A program made the translations under genes and the position numbers. From an uncultured bacterium (lineage in GTDB: Bacteria; Vulcanimicrobiota; CADAWZ01): 64,000 nt of DNA. The stretch lies in contig CADASF010000008.1 of NCBI GenBank assembly GCA_902790465.1, forward strand, positions 981 to 64,980, given 5' to 3'. A model generated the notes under the pieces. The model made no database searches. It was given only the letters and a program-made list of their open reading frames with translations, and was not told the origin of the DNA. Within the stretch, counting starts at the first letter, position 1, and every line of letters starts with the position of its first letter. This document shows, piece after piece, positions 47,157-61,016 of this stretch.

Positions 47157-47657
47157 ATGGATACAATTATTGATACTGCTTCATATATTATCAAAAAATA
47201 CAGAGAAATAACTGGTGAAAATCTTGATAAGATGAAGCTCCATAAATTGTTATATTTTACCCAAAGAGAAGCATTTGCAATAACAGGACAACCTGCTTTT
47301 GAAGGTATCTTAGAAGGTTGGAAATATGGACCAGTAAGTCCTGAAGTTAATAAAATTTATAATAGAAAAAAATTTTCAGTAAAAACGAAAGATATTTCAG
47401 ATAAACTTAAATATATAATTAACAATGTGATTCTTGAATATGGTTCTCTTGCTTCTTGGAAATTAAGCGAAATTTCACATAAAGAAACTTCTTGGTTAAA
47501 TTCAAGACAAGGATTAAAAAATACAGAAAATGGCAGTAATCCCTTAAAACTAAGTGATATAAGAGAAGATGCAAAAAAAATTCGTCCATATGATCATGTT
47601 TGGGATATGTATTATGACGAATTTGAAGATTACGATGATCAGGAGAAAAAATCTTGA
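47157..47657 (+). CDS. Panacea-domain (DUF4065, SocA/PanA-like) antitoxin
   Basis: KMKLHKLLYFTQREAFAITGQPAFEGILEGWKYGPVSPEV matches the DUF4065 core (L.KLLY..Q......G.PLF...F.AW..GPV.P.VY). SD is AAGGAGG. Confidence 0.7.
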   Translation: MDTIIDTASYIIKKYREITGENLDKMKLHKLLYFTQREAFAITGQPAFEGILEGWKYGPVSPEVNKIYNRKKFSVKTKDISDKLKYIINNVILEYGSLASWKLSEISHKETSWLNSRQGLKNTENGSNPLKLSDIREDAKKIRPYDHVWDMYYDEFEDYDDQEKKS

Positions 47658-48028
47658 TTGGTGAAATAAGAAAAATTATTACTTCATTTTATGATCTTAA
47701 AAATAATAAGATGTCATTTAAATCAAGACCTGCGTTAATAATAGCAAAAGCAGATAAAAAAGATTATGTTGTTTTACCTATATCTACTATAACAAGAAAA
47801 GATAATCTTGTTTTAGAATACGACATTGAAATAGAACCTACAAAATATCCTAAACTAAATTTACAAAAAATATCTTATGTGAGAACACATAAACAAACGA
47901 TAATACATAGTGCCGAAATTGGAGATTTTATAGGCGATATGAAAAATAATTATGAAGAATTATTTTTAGAGATACTGGAAAAAAGAGAAAAATTTAGTAA
48001 GTCAATAACGAATCAAGCATTGGAGTGA
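47654..48028 (+). CDS. MazF/PemK-like toxin (124 aa)
   Basis: KSRPALIIAK..DYVVLPISTIT..SYVRTHKQTIIHSAEI..IGDM follows the PemK/MazF pattern. Its TTG start overlaps the upstream stop (TTGA). Confidence 0.6.
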   Translation: MIGEIRKIITSFYDLKNNKMSFKSRPALIIAKADKKDYVVLPISTITRKDNLVLEYDIEIEPTKYPKLNLQKISYVRTHKQTIIHSAEIGDFIGDMKNNYEELFLEILEKREKFSKSITNQALE

Positions 48029-50348: not shown

Positions 50349-53300
50349 TCACTCTTTCGCTACTTTTACTCCATTTACTGAATTTGCTCCCCAATTTGGA
50401 TAACCCTTTTGCGATTTTAATTCTTCTCTATCTGTATAATTTATATTTGGAACACATTCAAAAGCATTTTCTGCAATGACTTTTACAGAATCAGGAATTG
50501 TCAAATTTAGAGATGTACAATCTGAAAAAGCATATGATTCTATCTTTTTTATACTTTTGGGAATTTCAAGAGATTGTAAAGATATACAATTTGAAAACAT
50601 TCTGTTTTTTATTGTTTCCAATTTATCAGAAATTTTTACATCTCGCAATTTTCTACAATCTTCAAAAAGACCATCTCCAATAGTCTTTACACTATTTGGA
50701 ATTATGATTTTCTTTAAAGATTGACAAGAAGCAAAAACCCGCTCTCCCATTTCAGTTACACTATCAGAAATTTTGATACTTTTTAAACCATAAAAACACT
50801 CAAAAAAAGCCTTATCTCCTATTTTAGTAACAGTATTTGGAATTTTTACTTTTTTTAATCGTGAACAAAATTCAAAAGTACTCTCTTGTATCTCTGTTAT
50901 AGTTTCAGGAAGAATCATAGTTTCCAAAGAAGAACAGGCAAAAGCATAACTTCCTATCTTTGTAACAGAATTTGGAATTTCTATTGTTGGCATTCTACAC
51001 CAAGAAAATGATCCACTTCCTATTTCAGTTACAGTCTCTGGAATAACTATATTTCTTAATGAATGACATTCAAAAAAAAGACGGTCTGCTATTTTTGTTA
51101 CTCCATAAGGAATATACAATTCTTTTAACTTATAACAATAATAAAAAGCCTCTTCTCCAATTTCTGTTATAGTATCTTTACAGTAATAAAAATTTTCAAT
51201 ATCTACCTTTTCCAAATTATAACAAAGGTCAAAAGCAAATGGTTTAATTTTAGTTATTCCAAGGGGAATTTTTACACTTTTTAATGATTCACAATGAAGA
51301 CAAGCCATTTTTCCAATAGAAGTTATTTTATACTTTTTGCCTTCATATTCATAAGTTGCTGGAATATCTAAATGCTCTACTTTTTCTTTATTTTTATAAA
51401 GTATTACTTCTTTATCCTCTGCGTATTCTTTATATTCTCCCAATCTTTCTACTTCATAACCGAGCTGTCTAAATATATCATCATTTAATTCAACTTCAAT
51501 GTAACCATCTTTTGTCTCACTTTTAACCCCATTAATTGCCTTTGCCCACCAAGGTGAACCTTCTAAATTACCATTATAATTTACATTTAGAACATCTTTA
51601 AAAGACTTTTCTCCTATTCTAAATACAGTATCAGGGATAGTCAAATTTAGAGAAGTACAGCCACTAAATGCCTCGTCTCCCAATCGATGTAATTCTTTAG
51701 GCATATGTATTTCCTCTAAAGATGTACAATTTGCAAAAGACTCATATCCGATAGTATAAACATTATCTGGAAGATAAACTTTCTTTAAAGAAGTACAATT
51801 TTTAAAAGCAGAATAACTTATTTCTACTACTTTTTGAGGAATAGATATACTTTCTAAAGATGTGCAATTTGCAAAAACAGAAGCCCAAATAATTGCAAGA
51901 TCATTTGAAAGAACTATATTTTTCAAAGATGTACAAGATTCAAAACCAGAATTTGCTATATAACCAACACTATCAGGAATTACAATATCTTTTAAAGAAG
52001 TACAATATTTAAAAGCCTCTTCGTCTATTCCATCAACTTTATCAGGAATAATTAAGTCTTCCAATGATTTACAATTATAAAAAGTATATTTTTGTATACT
52101 TTCCAAATTTTTAGAAAGAGCTACATCTTTTAATGATTCACAATTTTTAAAAGCAGATTCCCCTATTTCTAATACAGAATCTGAAATTGTTACACTTTTT
52201 AAAGAAGTAGAATTTGCAAAAGCAGATTTCCCTATTTTTAATACAGAATTTGGAATGGTTACACTTTTTAAAGAAACAGAATTTGCAAAAAAATTATTAG
52301 CAATCCCTGTTATTGTATATTCTATTCCATTATAATTATATGTTGATGGAATTTCTAAATATTCTACAGGTTCACCATTTTTGAAAATTGCAAATTTATC
52401 ATCTAGTCTGTCTATTTCATAACCCAATATTTTTAATATTTCATCAGTCAAATCTGCATAAAATTTATTTTCACTTAAAAAATTAATCCCTTTTAATGCA
52501 CTACAATCCTCAAAAACACCTATTCCCATTTTTTTGATATTTTTGGGAATCTCAACTATTTCCAATGATTTACAATTAGCAAAAGTATATTTTTTTAATT
52601 CTTCTAATTTATTTGAAAATTTTATATTTTTTAATTTTTCACAACCTAAAAAAGCCTTCTCACCTATTGTTTGCACACTATCAGGAATTTCAACTGTTTC
52701 CAAAGATTTACAATTAGTAAAAGCAAATTCACCTATTTCAGTAATTTTATTTGAAATGGTTATTTTTTTTAGCGAAAAACAATCATTAAAAAAGCCAAAA
52801 GGAATCTTTTTAAAATTATCTGGAATGATTACATTTTTTAATGAAAAACAACCATCAAAAACACAATTACCTATTTTTTTAACACTTTTTGGAAGTTCAA
52901 GAGATTGTAAAGATTCACATTCAATAAAAGCATCATCACCAATTTCTTTTAGATTATTTGGAATTTTTACTCTTTTTAAGTTAATACACCCATAAAAAGC
53001 AAAATCTTTTATTTTTGTTACACTATCAGGAATAACTATTTCTTTTAACGATCTACAACTCTCAAAAACACAACTAGATAATTCTTTTAAATTACAAGAA
53101 AGAGAAATTTTTTCTAAAGAATTACAATTATCAAAAGCATATTCTTTTATTTTTATAACACTGTCAGGAATGACTATTTCCTTTACTAACAAACAAAGAC
53201 GAAAGGCTCTCTTTTTAATATTTTTTACTGTATCTGGAATAGTTATTTCTTTTAAACCAGCACAATAAGCAAAAACCTCTTTTCCAATAGAAGTTATTTT

Positions 53301-53507
53301 ATATTTTCTACCTTCATATTCATAAGTAGCTGGAATGTCAAAAATTCTTATTTCCTTGCCGTTTTTTAATATTGCAAGATATTGCTTTAAAGAAAATTTT
53401 AGATAAAATTTTCCAGAATTTTTCCTTTTCCATTCCTTCCATTTAAATTCATAACCTAAATGATTCAAAACTTTTTTATCTAATTCAACTTCAATAAAAT
53501 CAGTCAT
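50349..53507 (-). CDS. BspA-type leucine-rich repeat (LRR_5) protein, 1052 aa, three internal modules
   Basis: It has dozens of ~23-aa repeats of the type IP.SV..IG..AF..C.SL. Three N-cap-like segments (..LGYE..IPATYEYEG(R/K)KYKITSIGK) delimit the modules. Confidence 0.85.
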   Translation of the reverse strand: MTDFIEVELDKKVLNHLGYEFKWKEWKRKNSGKFYLKFSLKQYLAILKNGKEIRIFDIPATYEYEGRKYKITSIGKEVFAYCAGLKEITIPDTVKNIKKRAFRLCLLVKEIVIPDSVIKIKEYAFDNCNSLEKISLSCNLKELSSCVFESCRSLKEIVIPDSVTKIKDFAFYGCINLKRVKIPNNLKEIGDDAFIECESLQSLELPKSVKKIGNCVFDGCFSLKNVIIPDNFKKIPFGFFNDCFSLKKITISNKITEIGEFAFTNCKSLETVEIPDSVQTIGEKAFLGCEKLKNIKFSNKLEELKKYTFANCKSLEIVEIPKNIKKMGIGVFEDCSALKGINFLSENKFYADLTDEILKILGYEIDRLDDKFAIFKNGEPVEYLEIPSTYNYNGIEYTITGIANNFFANSVSLKSVTIPNSVLKIGKSAFANSTSLKSVTISDSVLEIGESAFKNCESLKDVALSKNLESIQKYTFYNCKSLEDLIIPDKVDGIDEEAFKYCTSLKDIVIPDSVGYIANSGFESCTSLKNIVLSNDLAIIWASVFANCTSLESISIPQKVVEISYSAFKNCTSLKKVYLPDNVYTIGYESFANCTSLEEIHMPKELHRLGDEAFSGCTSLNLTIPDTVFRIGEKSFKDVLNVNYNGNLEGSPWWAKAINGVKSETKDGYIEVELNDDIFRQLGYEVERLGEYKEYAEDKEVILYKNKEKVEHLDIPATYEYEGKKYKITSIGKMACLHCESLKSVKIPLGITKIKPFAFDLCYNLEKVDIENFYYCKDTITEIGEEAFYYCYKLKELYIPYGVTKIADRLFFECHSLRNIVIPETVTEIGSGSFSWCRMPTIEIPNSVTKIGSYAFACSSLETMILPETITEIQESTFEFCSRLKKVKIPNTVTKIGDKAFFECFYGLKSIKISDSVTEMGERVFASCQSLKKIIIPNSVKTIGDGLFEDCRKLRDVKISDKLETIKNRMFSNCISLQSLEIPKSIKKIESYAFSDCTSLNLTIPDSVKVIAENAFECVPNINYTDREELKSQKGYPNWGANSVNGVKVAKE

Positions 53508-54953: not shown

Positions 54954-55505
54954 ATGTTTCTTATTTTTGGATTTCTAAATGACATTTTTGGAGATAGTGA
55001 AGAAAATAATCTTAAAAAAAATTCTCATAGTCGTTTCTCCTTTGAAGAATTTACTAGAGTCAGTTGGCAGGAGCATATCAATGATTTTACTAAAATGGTA
55101 GGTTACCCTTCTGACTCTGAAAAAAAATTTACAATACCTAAAACAACTACTCTGTATGGTGGTAAATCTGAAGGATATATAGATGAAATAGGAAGCGATT
55201 TCTTAAAAAGTATGTTTCGACCAAGTGATTCCTTAAGAAAACTTTATGAAGAATATCAAAGAAAATGTCGCATCCCCATAAAAAGTTGGTTTGGTCTAAT
55301 AGAAACAATAATCATTCCAAATTCTGTAACCAAAATAAAAGAAAATGCATTTAACAATTCTGAAGGCTATACAAGAAACTTAAAAAATATCATCATTCCT
55401 GATAGTGTTACAGAAATAGGTTCTGGTGCTTTTTACAATATTCAACACATTGAATATCACGGTTCAGCAAGTGGTGCCCCTTGGGGAGCAAAATCTATGA
55501 ACTAA
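54954..55505 (+). CDS. Small protein with two C-terminal BspA-type LRR units (183 aa)
   Basis: IIIPNSVTKIKENAFNN and IIIPDSVTEIGSGAFYN. The tail GAPWGAKSMN resembles the module ends of the 1052-aa LRR protein. Confidence 0.5.
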   Translation: MFLIFGFLNDIFGDSEENNLKKNSHSRFSFEEFTRVSWQEHINDFTKMVGYPSDSEKKFTIPKTTTLYGGKSEGYIDEIGSDFLKSMFRPSDSLRKLYEEYQRKCRIPIKSWFGLIETIIIPNSVTKIKENAFNNSEGYTRNLKNIIIPDSVTEIGSGAFYNIQHIEYHGSASGAPWGAKSMN

Positions 55506-55538
55506 TAAATAGTTCCAATTAGCAAACTTACAGAACAC

Positions 55539-55577
55539 AAAATCCCTCTTGCGGAGTATATATGCAGGAGGGATTTT
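55539..55577. terminator. Hairpin of the CTCTTGCGG..CYGCAAGAG family (bidirectional terminator)
   Basis: AAAATCCCTCTTGCGG-N-TGCAGGAGGGATTTT between convergent genes. Related copies lie at 56497-56536, 56912-56950 and 58136-58173. Confidence 0.65.
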
Positions 55578-55581
55578 ATTT

Positions 55582-56418
55582 TTATGCCATCGTTAGTGCC
55601 ATTGCTTGTATCTCTGCAAGTTCCAATGTTGTTGCTTCCGCAATCTTCTCTAAAGGAAGACCTATTTTTAATAAATTTTTTGCAGTTTTCCAAAGTCCAT
55701 TCTTCTCTCCAATTTTTTCGCCTTCAAGAATACCAACTTTTTTGCCAGCTTCAATCCATTCAGATTTTGATTCATTTATAATTCTTTGTACATTATCTTT
55801 ATATATAGCTTCCACTTCCTTAAAACCTCCCTCTGTTTGTTTTAAATATAATGCAGGTTTTCGTAACTCATCACATAACATCTCATCAGGATTTACACAT
55901 TTTAAATCATGAACAATTTTACCAATATCTGTTGAAATATCTTCAAACTCGCCATTTATGTAACGTTGAATGTGATACAATTCTTGACCTTTTTTGAATA
56001 TATCTTTTTCAGCTATAAATATAACATAAGTTTCACTAAGCGATCTAATATCTTCGCCTTTTTTCAAAGCATTTGAATCAATAGAACTGCTATAATATCT
56101 CGCACGAACTGCAACAGCTCCTTCACTGCTTCTTTGAATCTCTATGTTAAATCTACGCTTAACAGTCCCATCTTCTGCCAATTCTTCACAATAAAAATCA
56201 AGGCGAATTCCCCTACCTCCGACATTATCTATAACCTTTTGAATTTCCATATTCCTAACAATTATAAAAGGATTTTTTAGAAATTTTCTGATCAAATATT
56301 CAGCAGGTTTATAGGTCTTATTCTGCAAAAATGCCCTAAAATAAGTATCTGAAAATAGAGAGGCATTTTTTATGTAGTCCCTTAAATCTTGTGTGTTAAT
56401 TTGTATTTCTTCTGCCAT
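55582..56418 (-). CDS. Rpn/YhgA-like PD-(D/E)XK recombination-promoting nuclease (putative transposase family)
   Basis: Nuclease core RLDFYCE..FNIEIQRS (D..E.Q). The C-terminal helix-rich tail GLPLEKIAEATTLELAEIQ is typical of Rpn proteins. Confidence 0.7.
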   Translation of the reverse strand: MAEEIQINTQDLRDYIKNASLFSDTYFRAFLQNKTYKPAEYLIRKFLKNPFIIVRNMEIQKVIDNVGGRGIRLDFYCEELAEDGTVKRRFNIEIQRSSEGAVAVRARYYSSSIDSNALKKGEDIRSLSETYVIFIAEKDIFKKGQELYHIQRYINGEFEDISTDIGKIVHDLKCVNPDEMLCDELRKPALYLKQTEGGFKEVEAIYKDNVQRIINESKSEWIEAGKKVGILEGEKIGEKNGLWKTAKNLLKIGLPLEKIAEATTLELAEIQAMALTMA

Positions 56419-56496
56419 TTTTTTTAATCCACCTTATTTTTATTATAGCAAAATAGAAAAAATAATGCAACTCCTCAATGGGGAAGAATCAAACCA

Positions 56497-56536
56497 AAAT
56501 CCCTCTTGCGGAATATAATTTCTGCAAGAGGGATTT
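56497..56536. terminator. Hairpin of the CTCTTGCGG family
   Basis: AAAATCCCTCTTGCGGAATATAATTTCTGCAAGAGGGATTT downstream of the AbrB-like gene. Confidence 0.65.
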
Positions 56537-56578
56537 ATATTTGTTAAATTTTTCGGTAAATGTTATTTGAAACATTAT

Positions 56579-56836
56579 TTATTCCTCAAGTTTATCAAAC
56601 AATGCTTCTAAATTATCAAAAACAGGCTGTTTTCCATTATTAATATTTTCTTTTAATTGGTTTATTTCATCTTGCAATTCATCTAAATATTTCTTTGGAT
56701 AGACAACAACAGGAACAATACAGATCATACCATCTTTTTCAAAAATCTCTAATTTATCACCTTCAGAAATTCCAAGAGAAGAAACTATACTTTTAGGTAA
56801 AGTTATCTGTGATTTTGCTCTAAGTTCAGTTATCAT
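56579..56836 (-). CDS. AbrB/MazE/SpoVT-family antitoxin-like DNA-binding protein, no adjacent toxin ORF
   Basis: Swapped-hairpin signature AKSQITLPKSIVSSLGISEGDKLEIFEKDGMICIVP; 85 aa. Confidence 0.7.
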   Translation of the reverse strand: MITELRAKSQITLPKSIVSSLGISEGDKLEIFEKDGMICIVPVVVYPKKYLDELQDEINQLKENINNGKQPVFDNLEALFDKLEE

Positions 56837-56911
56837 AAATCCTCCTATTTTTAGAAATTCCTACTTTCATACTTAATTTTAAATTATTTCAATAAATTTG
56901 TCAATAAAAAC

Positions 56912-56950
56912 AAAATCCCTCTTGTGTAATATATCCGCAAGAGGGATTTT
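56912..56950. terminator. Hairpin of the CTCTTGCGG family
   Basis: AAAATCCCTCTTGTGTAATATATCCGCAAGAGGGATTTT just downstream of the abiF stop. Confidence 0.65.
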
Positions 56951-56954
56951 GCTT

Positions 56955-57869
56955 TTACAATCTGATATCTAAATGCTTTTCCCAGTCAGTAGGAAAACTT
57001 ATTCGTTTCAAATCAATATAAGGAGAATATTTTTCAATCAATTTCTTTAAATTTTTAAAAAACAAATTCCAAGTTTCATCATTGGGGCGAAGATATTTCA
57101 TTGCTAAAATAACAAAATACACACCATAAAATTTTACATTTGGAATTTTATCAATATCAATAATTTCAGGTTTTGTTGAAAATAAACGATTATAAATACG
57201 AGAATTATGAGCAACAATATTTCTCAAAATACAACAAGAATGTATCCAACTTGAAAACATTGACATAGAAGGCTTACAGTCTTTATTATTTCTATTTTTA
57301 AATTTATAATTTTCTACAAGCAAGCTAAAAGCATTTCCTTTTCCTGTTTTCATATTTTTTATTAATTTTGACAAAATACCAAAAGAAAGAATTTCTACTA
57401 TAGCCCAAATCGGAATTTGTCCATCATGATTATCTAAATGATGTTTTATAAAAACATCATTTGATCGAACTATTTCAGAAGAAATTATAGATAAATTTTT
57501 CCAATAATTTTGTTTATCACTACATATACAAGGATTGTATAAAATCAATGGGTCATTATAAATCCTCAATAGAGAATCTAAAAATCTCACTCTTAAAGCC
57601 ACTTCAATCTTAGACAAGATTGAAAAAATTAACTCTGAAAATTCTCTATCAAAATAATAAATATTTAATATGTTAGAAAATTTTGTATTATCTTTATATT
57701 TTTTATTATTTTTATCATAAAACGGAAAAGAATATCCACGAAGGCGATAATAACTAATAATATTCAATAAATCTAAAACTTCATCATCGGAATCAATAAT
57801 CATTCCTGCATTTTTATATGCCTGTAATTGTTCTTGAATAGATAAAACTTTTTTGGGATAAATATTCAT
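56955..57869 (-). CDS. abiF: Abi_2 family abortive-infection protein (AbiD/AbiF-like, HEPN)
   Basis: YYRLRGYSFPF, FDREF..L...L..IEVALRVRF, IPIWAIVEILSFG, and the Rx4H HEPN motif RNIVAH. I prefer the ATG at 57869 (MNIYPKK) over the ORF-track TTG at 57887, which overlaps the SD. Confidence 0.75.
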   Translation of the reverse strand: MNIYPKKVLSIQEQLQAYKNAGMIIDSDDEVLDLLNIISYYRLRGYSFPFYDKNNKKYKDNTKFSNILNIYYFDREFSELIFSILSKIEVALRVRFLDSLLRIYNDPLILYNPCICSDKQNYWKNLSIISSEIVRSNDVFIKHHLDNHDGQIPIWAIVEILSFGILSKLIKNMKTGKGNAFSLLVENYKFKNRNNKDCKPSMSMFSSWIHSCCILRNIVAHNSRIYNRLFSTKPEIIDIDKIPNVKFYGVYFVILAMKYLRPNDETWNLFFKNLKKLIEKYSPYIDLKRISFPTDWEKHLDIRL

Positions 57870-57885
57870 AAAACAATTTTTCCTC

Positions 57886-57954
57886 AAAAATAAAACGTCC
57901 CATCGGTTTGAGCTGTATTAACTTTCGTTAACCTTAAGCTTGACGGGATCTGTT
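57886..57954 (-). ncRNA. Structured leader/small RNA upstream of abiF, proximal copy (candidate abiF-motif RNA antitoxin)
   Basis: On the minus strand the fold is CCCGUC/GAUGGG, then AGCU/AGCU, then GUUAAC-GAAA-GUUAAU. A U-rich tract follows. It is driven by its own consensus promoter. Confidence 0.55.
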
Positions 57955-57960
57955 ATCTAT

Positions 57961-57989
57961 TGTATAACATTTTTTAAAATTTTTGTCAA
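57961..57989 (-). promoter_or_regulatory. Sigma-70 promoter, proximal copy
   Basis: Minus strand: TTGACA, 17-nt spacer, TGtTATACA (extended -10). Confidence 0.65.
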
Positions 57990-58025
57990 TATAACTCTGA
58001 AAATTTATCATTATAATTTTTCCTC

Positions 58026-58094
58026 AAAATAAAAAAGGCCCATCGGTTTGAGCTGTGTTAACTTTCGTTAACCTTAAGCTTGACGGGATCTGTT
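58026..58094 (-). ncRNA. Structured small RNA, distal copy of the abiF-upstream unit
   Basis: Same fold as the proximal copy, with apical stem GUUAAC-GAAA-GUUAAC. It is followed by CCUUUUUUAUUUU. Confidence 0.55.
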
Positions 58095-58100
58095 AACTAT

Positions 58101-58129
58101 TATATACCATATATTCTATTTTTTGTCAA
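58101..58129 (-). promoter_or_regulatory. Sigma-70 promoter, distal copy
   Basis: Minus strand: TTGACA, 17-nt spacer, TGgTATATA (extended -10). Confidence 0.65.
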
Positions 58130-58135
58130 CTACAA

Positions 58136-58173
58136 CAAAAAAGCTCTTGCAGAGATACTCCGCAAGAGCTTTT
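58136..58173 (-). terminator. Terminator after the xanthine dehydrogenase-family gene
   Basis: AAAAAAGCTCTTGCAGAGATACTCCGCAAGAGCTTTT. Its core is related to the CTCTTGCGG hairpin family. Confidence 0.65.
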
Positions 58174-58187
58174 ACTCACTCTAATTT

Positions 58188-61016
58188 TTAATCAAAATCA
58201 TACAAATATGGCTTGTCTTTCTTTTCCTGCAATGCCTGATATACTCTATCTGCTGTGAACGGCCATTCTTGCATCCAAACTCCAACAGCTTTATAAATAG
58301 CTATACCAATAACAGCAGCAGCTCCATTTGTACTGATTTCAGAGACAGATTTTCCGCCATAAGGACCTAAATGCTCATCTACACCTATAAGCTCGCATTT
58401 AAAATCTTTTGGAAGATCTCTGAACATAGGCACTTTATAATCTGCAAAATTTGGATTATGGCATTTGCCAGTCTTTGGATCAAAAGTCATAACTTCCATT
58501 ATAGAATGTCCGATTGATTTTACAACTCCTCCATAAACTTGACCAAGTGCCAATTCAGGATTGATAGGTGTTCCACATTCTTGGATTCCATAATATTTAT
58601 CAACAGTTACTTCACCTGTTCTTGTGTCAACACTTACCTCTGCAAAATGAGCTCCATAAGGAATAGGAGCTTCTTCTGTTGTGAAATGTCCTCTTGAAAT
58701 AATTTGTCCAACACCATTTCCTGATTGTGTCCTATATGCTATCTGTGCATAAGTTAAAGAAGCCTCTTTGTTATCTTTCTTTCTAATGATTCCCGGATAT
58801 TCCATAACCAAATTATCTACATCTGTTTCTAAAAACTGTGCAGAAATTTCAAGAAGTTTTTTCTTCATATCCTCAGCAGCTTTATATGCTGCCATTCCGC
58901 TAAAATATGTACCAGATGAAGCATAAGCACCGACATCAAAAGGTGTAACATCAGTATCTGATGATAAAATTGAGAAGTTCTCTATATCAGTGCAGAGCAT
59001 TTCTGAAGCTACTTTTACAGCAAGAGTATCAAGACCTGTTCCCAAATCTGTTCCACCCATTAAAATCATAAAAGTGCCGTCATTCATCATTTTTATTTCA
59101 GCATTTGCAGAATCTATACCTGGTAGACCAGAACCTTGTTGAATTATTGCAACTCCCCTACCCTTTTTAATATAAGGATTCTCAGAAGGAACAATAGGCT
59201 TATCCCAACCGATTAATTCGGCTCCTCTATCAAGACATTCTTTTAATCCACAAGAACTAATCCTCTGAGCGATACCTTCTTGACCTTCACCAAGTGATTT
59301 TAATATCTCAAGGAAATCGCCCTTTTTGACCATATTTTGTCTCAAAAATTCAAGTTGATCAATTCCAAGTTTTTCTGCAAGTTCTGCCAAAGCCATTTGA
59401 ACGGCAAAACTTCCCTGTGGAGCTCCATATCCCTGATATGCTCCAGAAATTATGTTATTTGTATAATATGTACTCACATCATAGTGCATATTTTCACATT
59501 TCAAAAGTGGCAAACTTTTTGAACAGGCATTCATTGGAACTGTCAAACAGTGGTTACCATAAGGTCCAGTATCTGAAATTTCTCTCAAATCTATAGCAGT
59601 AAGTTTTCCGTCTTTGGTTGCTCCTGCTTTAATTCTAAAGAACATTGTATGACGAACTCTTGCATTTAAGAATTCTTCTTCTCTTGTCATCTCATAATAT
59701 GCAGGCATACCTGTCTGCCAAACAACCCATGCGACAATATCCTCTTGAACAAGGTCTTGCTTTGCTCCATAAGCTCCGCCAACTCTTTCTTTAATAACAT
59801 GGATTTTATTTTCTTTAACACTAAGAAGATTTGAAAGAATTCTTCTCAAATGCCAAGGAACCTGAGTTGAAGCTCTTAAAACAAGTCGTCCACCTTCCAT
59901 ATAACCAAAGCAACGATGTGTTTCCATTGGTGTACAGTGAACTCTTGTTGTTCCATAATCTCTTTCAACAATGACATCTGCTTCTTCAAATCCTTTTTTG
60001 ACATCACCTATTCCACCGTCATTGTGTGCAGCTCTGTTTGTCTTTGGGTCTTGACCAATAGGAAGAGGATCAACAGAAATATCTCTGTCTTGAATCAAAA
60101 CTTCGGATTTTTTAGATTCAAAAGGATCGAATATTGCAGGTAAAATCTCATATTCTACCTTAATTAAATTTACAGCTTTTTCTGCTATTTCTGCAGTTGT
60201 AGCAGCAACTATTGCAACTCTATCTCCCAAATAACGAAGTGTTCTGTCTAAAAGTCTAAAATCATAAGGAGAAGGCTCTGGAAAACCCTGACCAGCCGTA
60301 TTATATGGACGGTCTGGAACATCTTTATATGTTGCAATATATTCGACTCCTTCGAGTTCTTCCGCTTTTGATGTATCTATACTCTTAATAAAAGCATGTG
60401 CATAAGGACTTTTCTTTACTTTTATTATAAGTGCATCTGAAGTTACCATATCACCAACATAAGCAGGATCTGCTTTTACGAGCTTTGGACCATCAACTTT
60501 TTTGGCTGGTTTTCCTACAGCTCTAAGATCATCTCTAAAAGTCTTGTGATCATCAAATGATTCTTTTTTTAGAATATTCAATACATTTAAATATTGTTTA
60601 TATCCTGTACAACGGCACATATTACCTGAAAGATAATCTTTCATATCATCTTCTGTTGGGTCTTCTATGTTATCATACAATTCTTTTACAGCTAACATCA
60701 TACCAGGTGTGCAGTGTCCACATTGAACAACTCCTGCTTCAAGAAATGCTTTCTGAATTGGGTGCAATTCATTACCTTTCGCAAAACCTTCTGTTGTAAA
60801 AATCTCGTCATTATCATCTAATTGACCAAGTCTAACTTGGCAAGAGTTAACCTTAACACCATTTAAAATGACACTACAAGCACCACAATACCCAGTGCCA
60901 TCACAATCTGTTCTTATAGATAAAAGATGATTTTTTTGTAAGACCTTTGCAAGAGGAAGCATTGGGTCTCCAGTCAAAGTTTTCTTTTTTCCATTGAGTG
61001 TAACTTTTATTTTCAT
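58188..61016 (-). CDS. Xanthine dehydrogenase/aldehyde oxidase family enzyme, fused [2Fe-2S] and molybdopterin-binding subunits (942 aa)
   Basis: N-terminal Cys clusters CDGTGYCGACSV, CGHCTPGM and CRCTGY. These are followed by a long a/b-hammerhead plus MoCo-binding region. Confidence 0.8.
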   Translation of the reverse strand: MKIKVTLNGKKKTLTGDPMLPLAKVLQKNHLLSIRTDCDGTGYCGACSVILNGVKVNSCQVRLGQLDDNDEIFTTEGFAKGNELHPIQKAFLEAGVVQCGHCTPGMMLAVKELYDNIEDPTEDDMKDYLSGNMCRCTGYKQYLNVLNILKKESFDDHKTFRDDLRAVGKPAKKVDGPKLVKADPAYVGDMVTSDALIIKVKKSPYAHAFIKSIDTSKAEELEGVEYIATYKDVPDRPYNTAGQGFPEPSPYDFRLLDRTLRYLGDRVAIVAATTAEIAEKAVNLIKVEYEILPAIFDPFESKKSEVLIQDRDISVDPLPIGQDPKTNRAAHNDGGIGDVKKGFEEADVIVERDYGTTRVHCTPMETHRCFGYMEGGRLVLRASTQVPWHLRRILSNLLSVKENKIHVIKERVGGAYGAKQDLVQEDIVAWVVWQTGMPAYYEMTREEEFLNARVRHTMFFRIKAGATKDGKLTAIDLREISDTGPYGNHCLTVPMNACSKSLPLLKCENMHYDVSTYYTNNIISGAYQGYGAPQGSFAVQMALAELAEKLGIDQLEFLRQNMVKKGDFLEILKSLGEGQEGIAQRISSCGLKECLDRGAELIGWDKPIVPSENPYIKKGRGVAIIQQGSGLPGIDSANAEIKMMNDGTFMILMGGTDLGTGLDTLAVKVASEMLCTDIENFSILSSDTDVTPFDVGAYASSGTYFSGMAAYKAAEDMKKKLLEISAQFLETDVDNLVMEYPGIIRKKDNKEASLTYAQIAYRTQSGNGVGQIISRGHFTTEEAPIPYGAHFAEVSVDTRTGEVTVDKYYGIQECGTPINPELALGQVYGGVVKSIGHSIMEVMTFDPKTGKCHNPNFADYKVPMFRDLPKDFKCELIGVDEHLGPYGGKSVSEISTNGAAAVIGIAIYKAVGVWMQEWPFTADRVYQALQEKKDKPYLYDFD

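What the first reader, a model, noticed from the sequence alone, without database searches (positions are those of the whole stretch)
56955..58135. AbiF/Abi_2 (HEPN) gene preceded by two tandem promoter + structured-RNA units: candidate RNA-antitoxin abortive-infection system
Seen in the sequence: a 140-bp unit occurs twice in tandem upstream of the Abi_2-like ORF, at about 57867-58006 and 58007-58135. On the minus strand each unit carries a near-consensus promoter (TTGACA, 17 nt, TGnTATA(C/T)A). The promoter is followed by AACAGAUCCCGUCAAGCUUAAGGUUAACGAAAGUUAA(C/U)ACAGCUCAAACCGAUGGG and then a U-rich tract. This sequence folds into a three-part hairpin: CCCGUC/GAUGGG, then AGCU/AGCU, then GUUAAC/GUUAA(C/U) capped by a GAAA tetraloop. 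The only substitution inside a stem between the two copies changes a G-C pair to G-U, so pairing is kept. The unit also includes the SD and ATG of abiF, so the distal copy is followed only by a 25-codon remnant. The protein carries an Rx4H HEPN motif (RNIVAH). Established knowledge, as I recall it: Abi_2/abiF genes were reported to be associated with a conserved upstream RNA (the abiF motif). More recently AbiF was described as a toxin neutralised by that RNA and proposed as an evolutionary relative of Cas13. Inference: this locus is such a system. The promoter, hairpin, U-tract, toxin layout resembles type III toxin-antitoxin attenuator architecture. The tandem duplication would double the antitoxin dose.
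Basis: partly seen in the sequence, partly recalled or inferred. Interest (0 to 1): 0.8.

Follow-up and report, generated by a model that had tools for sequence, protein, structure and literature searches.

The report
AbiF toxin with two RNA-antitoxin genes
This is an AbiF-type abortive-infection toxin gene preceded by two tandem copies of a small promoter-plus-hairpin RNA unit of the known abiF antitoxin type. It is a recognisable member of a recently characterised system whose only unusual feature is that the RNA gene is duplicated as a whole.

Summary
Two 140-nt units (89% identical) lie head to tail upstream of a 304-aa ORF on the minus strand.

- **Protein.** The ORF is a strong Abi_2/AbiD match. 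It aligns over its full length with the solved PbAbiF structure (8VZ6) and keeps the catalytic R-x4-H.
- **RNA.** Each unit has a near-consensus promoter, a conserved AACAGA leader, a three-helix hairpin and a U-tract. Rfam's abiF model hits both hairpins only below threshold (about 23 vs 37 bits), because the apical helix is longer.
- **Independent test.** A covariance model built only from units of 46-59%-identical relatives hits both at E about 5e-10. It also finds the two motifs of the validated C. difficile antitoxin RCd22.

What differs is the whole-unit duplication, so each RNA has its own promoter and U-tract. I saw this only in the window's close relatives.

All 80 more distant relatives have an upstream unit, and 75 also have one just after the gene. 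Two units per abiF gene is therefore usual.

Function was not tested.

The parts
58101..58129 (-). Distal unit promoter: TTGACA, 17-nt spacer, (TGG)TATATA
   Evidence: Read directly from the sequence. It sits in the same register as the TTGACA-17-TGTATAAT promoters upstream of homologous units in relatives, with 6-7 nt between the -10 and the AACAGA leader. The scan tool does not call it because the -10 ends in A.
58026..58095 (-). Distal abiF-type RNA unit: leader UAACAGAU, hairpin 58087-58039, tail CC-U6-A-U4. Predicted sRNA of about 70 nt.
   Evidence: Model R1 scores 43.8 bits, E 4.3e-10, over 58095-58034. Rfam abiF scores 22.8 bits over 58087-58038. Fold. RNA ends are inferred from the register of the mapped RCd22 start (PMC12373285).
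57934..58025 (-). Duplicated SD (GAGGA, 58025-58021) and ATG (58011-58009) opening a 25-codon ORF that runs through the proximal promoter. A by-product of the duplication.
   Evidence: The ATG and ORF are absent in L088 and L001.
57961..57989 (-). Proximal unit promoter: TTGACA, 17-nt spacer, (TGT)TATACA
57886..57955 (-). Proximal abiF-type RNA unit: leader UAACAGAU, hairpin 57947-57899, tail ACG-U4-A-U5. Also the 5' leader of the abiF mRNA when read through.
   Evidence: Model R1 scores 43.2 bits, E 6.5e-10, over 57955-57894. Rfam abiF scores 22.6 bits over 57947-57898. Fold.
56955..57885 (-). SD GAGGA (57885-57881) and the abiF CDS (ATG 57869 to stop 56955; 304 aa). HEPN toxin with R216-NIVA-H221.
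   Evidence: Pfam Abi_2 E 2.6e-44. PADLOC AbiD E 1.1e-82. PDB 8VZ6 E 1.9e-26. R216, N217 and H221 are invariant in 23 homologues.
56905..56957 (-). Terminator-like palindrome that closes the abiF transcription unit. It overlaps the stop codon.
   Evidence: Inverted repeat I1, 20-nt arms, 95% complementary. No abiF-type unit follows the gene here.

Best explanation
The locus is an AbiF-type abortive-infection toxin-antitoxin module. The 304-aa protein is a HEPN RNase toxin of the Abi_2/AbiD/AbiF family. Upstream lie two self-contained small-RNA genes in tandem.

**Each RNA gene** has a sigma-70 promoter and a transcript starting at or near the conserved AACAGA leader. It encodes an abiF-motif hairpin: P1, a bulged A, P2, an internal loop, an extended P3 capped by GAAA, and a conserved CAAACC 3' internal loop. 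A U-tract follows the GC-rich basal stem.

**Inferred mechanism**, by homology with PbAbiF and C. difficile AbiF/RCd22:
1. Most transcripts end at the U-tract, giving abundant RNAs of about 70 nt.
2. These RNAs bind AbiF, one per monomer of the dimer, and block its HEPN site.
3. abiF has no promoter of its own, so it is made only by read-through of the proximal hairpin, or of both hairpins. This keeps RNA in excess over toxin.
4. When transcription is shut off or the RNA is lost, for example during phage infection, free AbiF cleaves RNA and arrests growth.

The second (distal) unit arose by tandem duplication of the whole promoter-RNA-SD-ATG unit. It supplies a second antitoxin RNA whose synthesis is largely uncoupled from toxin transcription.

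**Shown here:** sequence anatomy, homology of the protein and the RNA, and conservation of the hairpins.

**Inferred only:** RNA ends, termination, binding, toxicity and the trigger.
For: **Protein**
- Abi_2 at 152 bits and PADLOC AbiD at E 1e-82.
- Full-length alignment to PbAbiF 8VZ6 with the catalytic R and H conserved.
- About 32% identity to the tested C. difficile phiC2/phi027 AbiF.

**RNA homology**
- Rfam abiF hits exactly the two units on the gene's strand and shows the conserved CCCGyCAAGC...GCUCAAAyCGryGGG.
- Model R1 was built from 75 distinct units of relatives, with no window-clade sequence. It gives E 4e-10 and 6.5e-10 across the whole 64 kb, and the next best hit is 12.4 bits.
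- R1 also finds both motifs of the phiC2 copy of RCd22, the validated antitoxin (34.7 and 24.7 bits).

**Structure**
- In the relatives' alignment, 8 of 9 pairs show changes on both sides. P2 was not used to select sequences and reads AU:50, CG:21, GC:3.
- The extended P3 is a recurrent form. About a quarter of the relatives' upstream units have a long apical insert. The three I folded form an apical helix, one of them with the same 4/2 internal loop, 6-bp helix and a UUCG tetraloop.

**Conservation within the clade**
- Ten intact unit copies were compared: nine from four lineages, plus an orphan third copy in L002. Their 50-nt hairpin varies at only three sites. Both stem changes are G-C to G.U, while promoter spacers and tails differ much more.
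- Third codon positions of abiF are 87.5-92% identical, against 95-100% for the hairpin.

**Layout**
- A promoter, terminator-like hairpin and toxin gene match AbiD1, AbiF and RCd22 (PMC11381338, PMC12373285).
Against: - The Rfam gathering score is not met.
- The hairpin plus U-tract is not a textbook terminator. P1 has 6 bp including a G.U, it is followed by internal loops, and 2-3 nt separate the stem from the U-tract. The terminator scan did not call the whole hairpin.
- Fold z-scores for the 75-nt units are modest (-1.5 and -2.8).
- In one relative (L001/L008, MAG RUG13696) the distal unit has lost its 5' arm. The second unit is therefore dispensable there, or the assembly is faulty.
- At least four relatives (L017, L030, L031, L072) carry a single detectable unit; a fifth, L074, is cut off 63 nt after the stop.
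- The near-identity of the two hairpins could reflect recent duplication or gene conversion and not selection on both.
- There are no expression or toxicity data.
Confidence: 0.78

Rival explanations
1. Only the proximal unit works. The distal unit is a recent, neutral tandem-duplication remnant on its way to decay, with no role in controlling AbiF.
For: - The duplication also copied a useless SD and ATG.
- The tandem layout was seen only in a narrow clade with 88-100% protein identity. Two exact-pattern scans found it nowhere else.
- In L001/L008 the distal unit is degenerate.
- Some relatives manage with one detectable unit.
Against: - The distal promoter keeps a perfect -35 and a 17-nt spacer in every lineage.
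- The distal hairpin is intact in four of five lineages, although abiF third positions have diverged 8-12%.
- Its only stem changes keep pairing.
- Hairpin and tail variants are exchanged between distal and proximal positions among lineages, which implies ongoing conversion between two maintained copies.
- Two units per gene is the family norm (75 of 80 loci).
Confidence: 0.15
2. The hairpins are purely cis-acting leader or attenuator elements, i.e. a promoter plus a leaky terminator that sets abiF transcription. They have no trans-acting antitoxin (protein-binding) role.
For: - Each hairpin is followed directly by a U-tract and lies between the only promoters and the gene.
- RCd22 also lowers abiF expression at the transcriptional level (PMC12373285).
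Against: - The conserved single-stranded nucleotides (bulged A, CAA of the 3' loop, ACAGA leader) are invariant across relatives whose stems covary. A terminator does not need them.
- The same motif sits downstream of the gene, followed by a separate terminator, in 75 relatives. There it cannot attenuate abiF.
- Homologous RNAs bind and neutralise AbiF in two tested systems (PMC12373285; 8VZ6 via PMC12737573).
Confidence: 0.05
3. The two repeats are a rudimentary CRISPR-like array, and the RNA guides AbiF to targets.
For: AbiF is proposed as the Cas13 ancestor. Duplicated abiF motifs have been discussed as a possible step towards arrays (PMC12373285 discussion).
Against: - The sequence between the hairpins is a promoter plus SD remnant that is conserved between strains, not a variable spacer.
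- There are only two copies and no cas1 or cas2 nearby.
- No arrays with more copies were found.
Confidence: 0.02

Closest known systems
C. difficile phi027/phiC2 AbiFCd with ncRNA RCd22 (Saunier et al. 2025, PMC12373285)
   Same: - An Abi_2/HEPN toxin, about 32% identical.
- A SigA-type promoter directly followed by an ACAGA leader and abiF motifs.
- Two motifs upstream of the gene, and no separate promoter for abiF.
- My model detects both RCd22 motifs.
   Different: RCd22 is one RNA from one promoter. It carries two short motifs 19 nt apart, followed by a separate terminator hairpin.

Here each motif has its own promoter and its own U-tract, the units are 140 nt apart, and the motif has an extended GNRA-capped apical helix. 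The C. difficile gene lies in a prophage lysis module. This one lies next to a xanthine-dehydrogenase-family gene, among TA and transposase-like cassettes.
Prevotellaceae PbAbiF-AbiFr complex (PDB 8VZ6; Zilberzwige-Tal et al. 2025, Cell, read only through PMC12737573 and PMC12373285)
   Same: The proteins are homologous over their full length (E 1.9e-26), and the catalytic R and H are aligned. The homodimer binds two RNA copies, which fits two RNA units per locus.
   Different: The literature I could read describes a single cis-encoded ncRNA. I could not compare RNA sequences because the primary paper is not in the library.
Rfam RF03085 abiF RNA motif
   Same: P1, a bulged A, P2 AGC/GCU, the 3' loop CAAAYC, and association with abiF genes on the same strand.
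   Different: The apical part is 24 nt where the model expects about 11, so the score is about 23 bits against a gathering score of 37. In the relatives tested, Rfam passes threshold mostly for units downstream of the gene.
Flanked abiF loci of Lachnospiraceae, Oscillospiraceae and others
   Same: - Proteins are 46-59% identical.
- The upstream unit has the same promoter register, the same AACAGA leader and a GC-rich P1 followed by a U-tract.
- There are two RNA units per gene.
   Different: In those loci the second unit lies 30-60 nt after the stop codon and is followed by a separate GC-rich terminator. Upstream units are mostly of the ACGC/GCGCAACCC type. The window clade has both units upstream, both of the AAGC/GCUCAAACC type, and none downstream.
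Classical type III TA systems (ToxIN, AbiQ, CptIN, TenpIN)
   Same: Tandem RNA repeats, a terminator-like element, then a toxin RNase gene. The RNA antitoxin acts by binding the protein.
   Different: The toxin fold is unrelated (HEPN here). Those repeats are 34-50 nt, contiguous, transcribed from one promoter and cut apart by the toxin. Here the repeat unit is 140 nt and carries its own promoter.

Membership tests
AbiD/AbiF (Pfam Abi_2, PF07751) HEPN toxins | Abi_2 domain above Pfam's gathering score | tested here: met
   152.2 bits against a cut-off of 25.6, profile positions 2-184 of 184. PADLOC AbiD E 1.1e-82.
AbiD/AbiF (Pfam Abi_2, PF07751) HEPN toxins | HEPN R-x4-H catalytic motif at the position of PbAbiF R210/H215 | tested here: met
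   R216-NIVA-H221 aligns with R210-NSCC-H215 of 8VZ6. R216, N217 and H221 are invariant in 23 homologues. The R210A+H215A mutant is reported inactive (PMC12373285).
AbiD/AbiF (Pfam Abi_2, PF07751) HEPN toxins | Toxic RNase activity and phage defence | not testable with these tools
   Needs expression and plaque assays.
Rfam abiF RNA (RF03085) | Score at or above the curated gathering score (37 bits) | tested here: not met
   22.8 and 22.6 bits, E about 0.7. No hit in the gathering-threshold scan of the whole window. The shortfall comes from a 24-nt apical insertion.
Rfam abiF RNA (RF03085) | Consensus fold and conserved nucleotides (P1, bulged A, AGC/GCU, CAAAYC loop) | tested here: met
   Shown in the alignment. 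Model R1 matches end to end at 43-44 bits. The MFE folds agree.
Rfam abiF RNA (RF03085) | Homology to units at abiF loci that do pass Rfam's threshold | tested here: met
   R1 was built from relatives' units, many of which pass the Rfam threshold. It hits the window units at E 4e-10 and 6.5e-10, and the validated RCd22 motifs at E 7e-9 and 5e-6.
Type III toxin-antitoxin systems (functional class) | Repeated RNA antitoxin gene directly upstream of the toxin gene, on the same strand | tested here: met
   Two units, spacing 140 nt, the last one ending 16 nt before the ATG.
Type III toxin-antitoxin systems (functional class) | Terminator between antitoxin and toxin that sets the RNA:toxin ratio | tested here: inconclusive
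   A GC-rich basal stem plus U-tract follows each unit. The generic terminator scan calls only a sub-hairpin at 58053-58038. Termination efficiency is unknown.
Type III toxin-antitoxin systems (functional class) | RNA binds and inhibits the toxin, and the toxin processes the RNA | not testable with these tools
   Known for PbAbiF and AbiFCd from the literature only.
CRISPR-Cas type VI-like array | Repeats separated by variable spacers, with adaptation genes or many repeats | tested here: not met
   The inter-unit segment is a conserved promoter and SD remnant. There are two copies only.

The most novel reading that the evidence does not exclude
In this AbiF subfamily, selection maintains two separately encoded antitoxin RNA units per toxin gene, matching the two RNA sites of the AbiF dimer.

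- Most lineages place one unit before the gene and one after it (repeat-gene-repeat). Each unit has the same ACAGA leader and a -10-like hexamer in the same register.
- The window's lineage lost the downstream unit and compensated by duplicating the whole upstream promoter-RNA unit.
- Such autonomous, recombining RNA units would give a toxin-independent supply of antitoxin.
- They would also be a concrete example of repeat multiplication at AbiF loci, the step assumed on the path towards Cas13 arrays.

The papers I could read describe the RNA only as upstream.
Probability: 0.3. Interest if true: 0.6.

Novelty: new variant of a known kind. Interest (0 to 1): 0.4.

Why it matters
AbiF with its RNA is the proposed ancestor of Cas13, and only two such systems have been studied experimentally.

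- This locus shows that the curated Rfam model misses natural abiF RNAs with extended apical helices, so surveys based on it undercount them.
- It also shows that the RNA gene can be multiplied as an autonomous promoter-bearing unit.
- The wider comparison suggests two RNA units per toxin gene is a common design, arranged either flanking the gene or in tandem. That is testable: delete either unit, then measure RNA:protein stoichiometry.
- It also bears on how repeat arrays could have arisen next to a HEPN effector.

For annotation, the practical result is simple. This is a defence/TA cassette at a variable spot next to a conserved metabolic gene.

Tried and rejected
1. **Generic promoter and terminator scan.** It misses both unit promoters, because it requires T at the last -10 position, and it does not model branched hairpins. 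I relied instead on direct reading and on the register shared with relatives.
2. **First tandem-pattern scan.** None of the 80 loci returned holds a real unit. This scan was wasted.
3. **Tighter tandem pattern.** It gave two genome hits and one viral hit, none real. The tandem layout was therefore not found outside the clade. The pattern is exact, and the clade's own representative genome has a degenerate distal unit, so sensitivity is limited.
4. **Exact 30-mer of the window hairpin in JGI metagenomes.** No hits. The known relatives come from ENA assemblies.
5. **blastn of the 266-nt tandem region against phages and plasmids.** No match.
6. **Primary literature.** The Zilberzwige-Tal et al. 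paper is not held. The Weinberg et al. 2017 main text does not mention abiF and its supplements are not held. I could not check whether downstream abiF motifs or RNA nucleotide contacts have been described.
7. **Weak Rfam hits at 56903-56986.** The ohsC and Plastid-psbA-3 hits are the abiF terminator palindrome, so I rejected them as chance.
8. **My first pairing filter.** It returned nothing because of an off-by-one in the regular expression. It was redone.
9. **Organism identity.** Not resolved. The closest genome is the unclassified MAG RUG13696.
Full report
**1. What is in the sequence**

All features below are on the minus strand of 56955-58135. A 942-aa molybdopterin/xanthine-dehydrogenase-family gene ends at 58188 and has its own terminator palindrome at 58173-58139. 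Two head-to-tail units follow it.

The repeat finder reports 57875-57989 and 58015-58129 as a direct repeat with spacing 140 and 89% ungapped identity. Each unit reads, in order:
- TTGACA, then a 17-nt spacer ending in TGn.
- TATATA (distal) or TATACA (proximal).
- Six nt, then the leader AACAGAU.
- The hairpin CCCGUC-A-AGCU-UAAG-GUUAAC-GAAA-GUUAA(C/U)-AC-AGCU-CAAACC-GAUGGG.
- A U-rich tail, then GAGGA and an ATG.

After the proximal unit the ATG (57869) opens a 304-aa ORF that ends at 56955. After the distal unit the ATG opens only 25 codons, which run through the proximal promoter.

For the distal hairpin folded on its own it gives -14.7 kcal/mol and z = -3.8, with 0 of 200 shuffles as stable. 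The two hairpins differ at a single base, which turns a G-C pair into G.U.

The generic promoter scan does not list these promoters because both -10 hexamers end in A.

**2. The protein**

- Pfam Abi_2 scores 152 bits, E 2.6e-44, covering the whole profile.
- PADLOC AbiD gives E 1.1e-82.
- The only solved relative is 8VZ6, 'Abi family protein' (PbAbiF). It aligns over residues 4-298 at E 1.9e-26.
- In that alignment R216 and H221 of RNIVAH lie on R210 and H215. PMC12373285 reports that R210A+H215A inactivates PbAbiF.
- R216, N217 and H221 are invariant in an alignment of 23 homologues.
- The protein is about 32% identical to the AbiF of C. difficile phages phiC2 and CD2301. That protein was shown to be toxic and to be neutralised by an RNA (PMC12373285).

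**3. The RNA**

Rfam's abiF model (RF03085) hits exactly the two hairpins on the right strand. The scores are 22.8 and 22.6 bits, below the gathering score of 37. Nothing in the 64 kb passes any Rfam threshold.

The printed alignment shows why. Every conserved position matches (CCCGyCAAGC ... GCUCAAAyCGryGGG), but 24 nt sit where the model expects about 11.

To test homology independently, I collected 80 loci encoding 46-59%-identical AbiF proteins. I extracted their hairpin units, aligned 75 distinct ones (A2) and built covariance model R1. No sequence from the window's own clade went into it.

- With filters off, across the whole window and both strands, R1 scores 43.8 bits (E 4.3e-10) at 58095-58034 and 43.2 bits (E 6.5e-10) at 57955-57894. 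The next best hit is 12.4 bits.
- As a positive control, R1 finds both motifs of the phiC2 copy of RCd22, at 34.7 and 24.7 bits. The first motif includes the ACAGAAC leader immediately after the -10.

The window units are therefore true abiF-type RNAs that the curated model misses.

**4. Structure support**

On A2, the nine pairs of P1 and P2 are 99.9% paired, and eight of them show changes on both sides. Sliding the partner columns drops pairing to 14-42%.

One caveat applies. I selected units by requiring P1 to pair, so the P1 pairing percentage is partly built in. The variety of its pair types is not built in. P2 was not selected for pairing and shows AU:50, CG:21, GC:3.

The bulged A, the CAA of the 3' internal loop and the GA of the leader are invariant. 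A review states that single-stranded nucleotides of AbiFr block the active site (PMC12737573), so protein contacts at these positions are plausible. I could not map them.

The extended apical helix is a natural variant. About a quarter of the relatives' upstream units have long inserts. The three I folded form helices of unrelated sequence. One has the same 4/2 internal loop, a 6-bp helix and a UUCG tetraloop.

**5. The window's own clade**

Contigs encoding proteins 88-100% identical (L002-L006, L007, L088, L001/L008) all have the xdh-family gene upstream and two tandem units.

I compared ten intact unit copies: nine from four lineages, plus an orphan third copy in L002. The hairpin varies at three sites only:
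- P3 closing C/U, a G-C to G.U change.
- P1 U/C, a G.U to G-C change.
- A linked C/A in the loop.

Promoter spacers and tails differ much more. abiF third codon positions are 87.5-92% identical between these lineages, against 95-100% for the hairpin.

The variants are mosaic. In L088 the CC-U6 tail is on the proximal unit and the ACG tail on the distal one, the reverse of the window. The copies therefore exchange sequence.

In L001/L008 the distal unit has lost its 5' arm (12 changes). The second unit is not indispensable everywhere, or that MAG is imperfect.

**6. The wider family**

R1 run over 84 loci gave 163 hits, all on the gene's strand.
- All 80 loci outside the window's clade have a unit directly upstream: TTGACA-17-TGTATAAT, AACAGAACC, a hairpin mostly of the CCCRCC-ACGC...GCGCAACCC-GGYGGG type, a U-tract, SD and ATG.
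- 75 of the 80 also have a second unit 30-60 nt after the stop codon. It is of the canonical AAGC...GCUCAAACC type and is followed by a separate GC-rich terminator.
- Rfam's model passes threshold mostly for these downstream units.

Two RNA units per abiF gene is thus common. The window clade has both upstream and none downstream. The window units resemble upstream units in promoter, leader, GC-rich P1 and U-tract. The simplest history is a tandem duplication of the upstream unit in a lineage that lacks the downstream one.

Two exact-pattern scans found no other tandem arrangement of this spacing in one-genome-per-species GTDB or in IMG/VR. Their sensitivity is limited.

**7. Mechanism**

*Shown:* the anatomy, the homology and the conservation.

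*Taken from the literature:*
- AbiF is a HEPN RNase toxin and forms a homodimer.
- Each monomer binds one ncRNA, which blocks the active site.
- RCd22 acts in cis by premature termination and in trans by binding.
- The AbiD1 and AbiF upstream promoter-terminator region is needed for function.

Sources are PMC12373285, PMC12737573, PMC13064643 and PMC11381338.

*Inferred for this locus:*
- Each unit is an sRNA gene whose own basal stem plus U-tract ends most transcripts.
- abiF is expressed only by read-through.
- Two promoters keep RNA in excess.
- Loss of the RNA frees the toxin.

The hairpin is not a textbook terminator, which would fit a leaky attenuator, but this is untested.

**8. Rivals**

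- The distal unit may be a decaying duplicate. The L001 decay and the copied SD/ATG favour this. The intact promoter and hairpin in four lineages, and the family-wide pairing of units, argue against it.
- A purely cis-acting attenuator is disfavoured by the invariant unpaired nucleotides and by downstream copies that cannot attenuate abiF.
- A CRISPR-like array is excluded by the conserved, promoter-containing inter-unit segment.

**9. Comparison and novelty**

The kind is known: AbiF/abiF RNA, a type III-like TA and proposed Cas13 ancestor. Membership is clear for the protein family. For the RNA family it holds by homology, although the Rfam threshold is formally not met.

The differences from the two studied systems are organisational. 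There are two autonomous promoter-RNA-U-tract units, in place of one RNA carrying one or two motifs plus a separate terminator. The apical helix is also extended.

I rate this as a new variant of a known kind, of moderate interest.

**10. Context**

The cassette sits between a conserved metabolic gene and a variable stretch. That stretch holds an orphan MazE/AbrB-like gene, a PDDEXK_2 transposase-like gene, BspA-LRR genes and a SocA/PemK-like pair. Strains differ in cassette content, and the breakpoints fall at repeated terminator-like palindromes.

The organism is unresolved. G+C is about 21-37% locally. The nearest genome is the unclassified MAG RUG13696.

Noticed in passing
L009-L087 and L089 (gene at about 1501-2406; units at about 1420-1480 and about 2430-2510): In 75 of 80 loci encoding 46-59%-identical AbiF proteins, the gene is flanked by two abiF-type units. 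One is upstream with a full promoter. The other is 30-60 nt after the stop and is followed by a separate GC-rich terminator. The two units of a locus have different P1 sequences. The papers I could read describe the RNA only as upstream.
   Followed up: partly
L018, L021, L043, L089 and others: 10-25 nt before the downstream unit: The downstream units keep a -10-like hexamer (TAAAAT, TATACT, TATGCT or TATAAT) about 7 nt before their [AG]CAGA leader. This is the same register as the upstream promoters, but there is no clear -35. They may be weak independent promoters or vestiges of a duplication.
   Followed up: no
L002 and L003, 5413-5590: A third, orphan unit (distal-type promoter, intact hairpin) is followed by only the first 18 codons of abiF, then the abiF terminator and a second MazE-like gene with a ParE/YafQ-like toxin. 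This looks like an internally deleted second abiF cassette. The window lacks it.
   Followed up: partly
window 56905-56957, 56491-56546, 55537-55585 (related: 58139-58173): A palindromic, terminator-like element of about 50 nt (AAAATCCCTCTTGCGGA ... TCCGCAAGAGGGATTTT) recurs after successive genes. Strain-to-strain differences in cassette content have breakpoints at these elements: MazE is absent in L001, and other TA genes are present in L007. They may act as recombination junctions.
   Followed up: partly
window 56579-56836 (-), promoter-like site 56904-56876: An 85-aa MazE/AbrB-type antitoxin-like gene has its own near-consensus promoter (11 of 12) and no adjacent toxin gene. In L002 its duplicate is followed by a ParE/YafQ-like toxin.
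   Followed up: partly
L002 2586-2733: A 148-nt insertion with 15-bp terminal inverted repeats (GGCTGTGAAAAAGTA ... TACTTTTTTCACAGCC) replaces part of the xdh terminator just upstream of the distal unit. It looks like a MITE.
   Followed up: no
window 47157-48028 (+): A SocA/Panacea-domain gene overlaps a PemK/MazF-like toxin gene. This is probably another TA pair, about 9 kb from abiF.
   Followed up: no
window 50349-53507 (-) and 54954-55505 (+): A 1052-aa BspA-type leucine-rich-repeat protein, plus a 183-aa fragment with the same repeat type on the opposite strand.
   Followed up: no
L017 and L031, about 30 nt after the abiF stop: In Holdemanella and Solobacterium the downstream unit is degenerate (AACUAAGCUUUUUUCUUAAACGGGUUAG) while the terminator behind it is intact. 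This is an example of a lineage reduced to one detectable unit.
   Followed up: no
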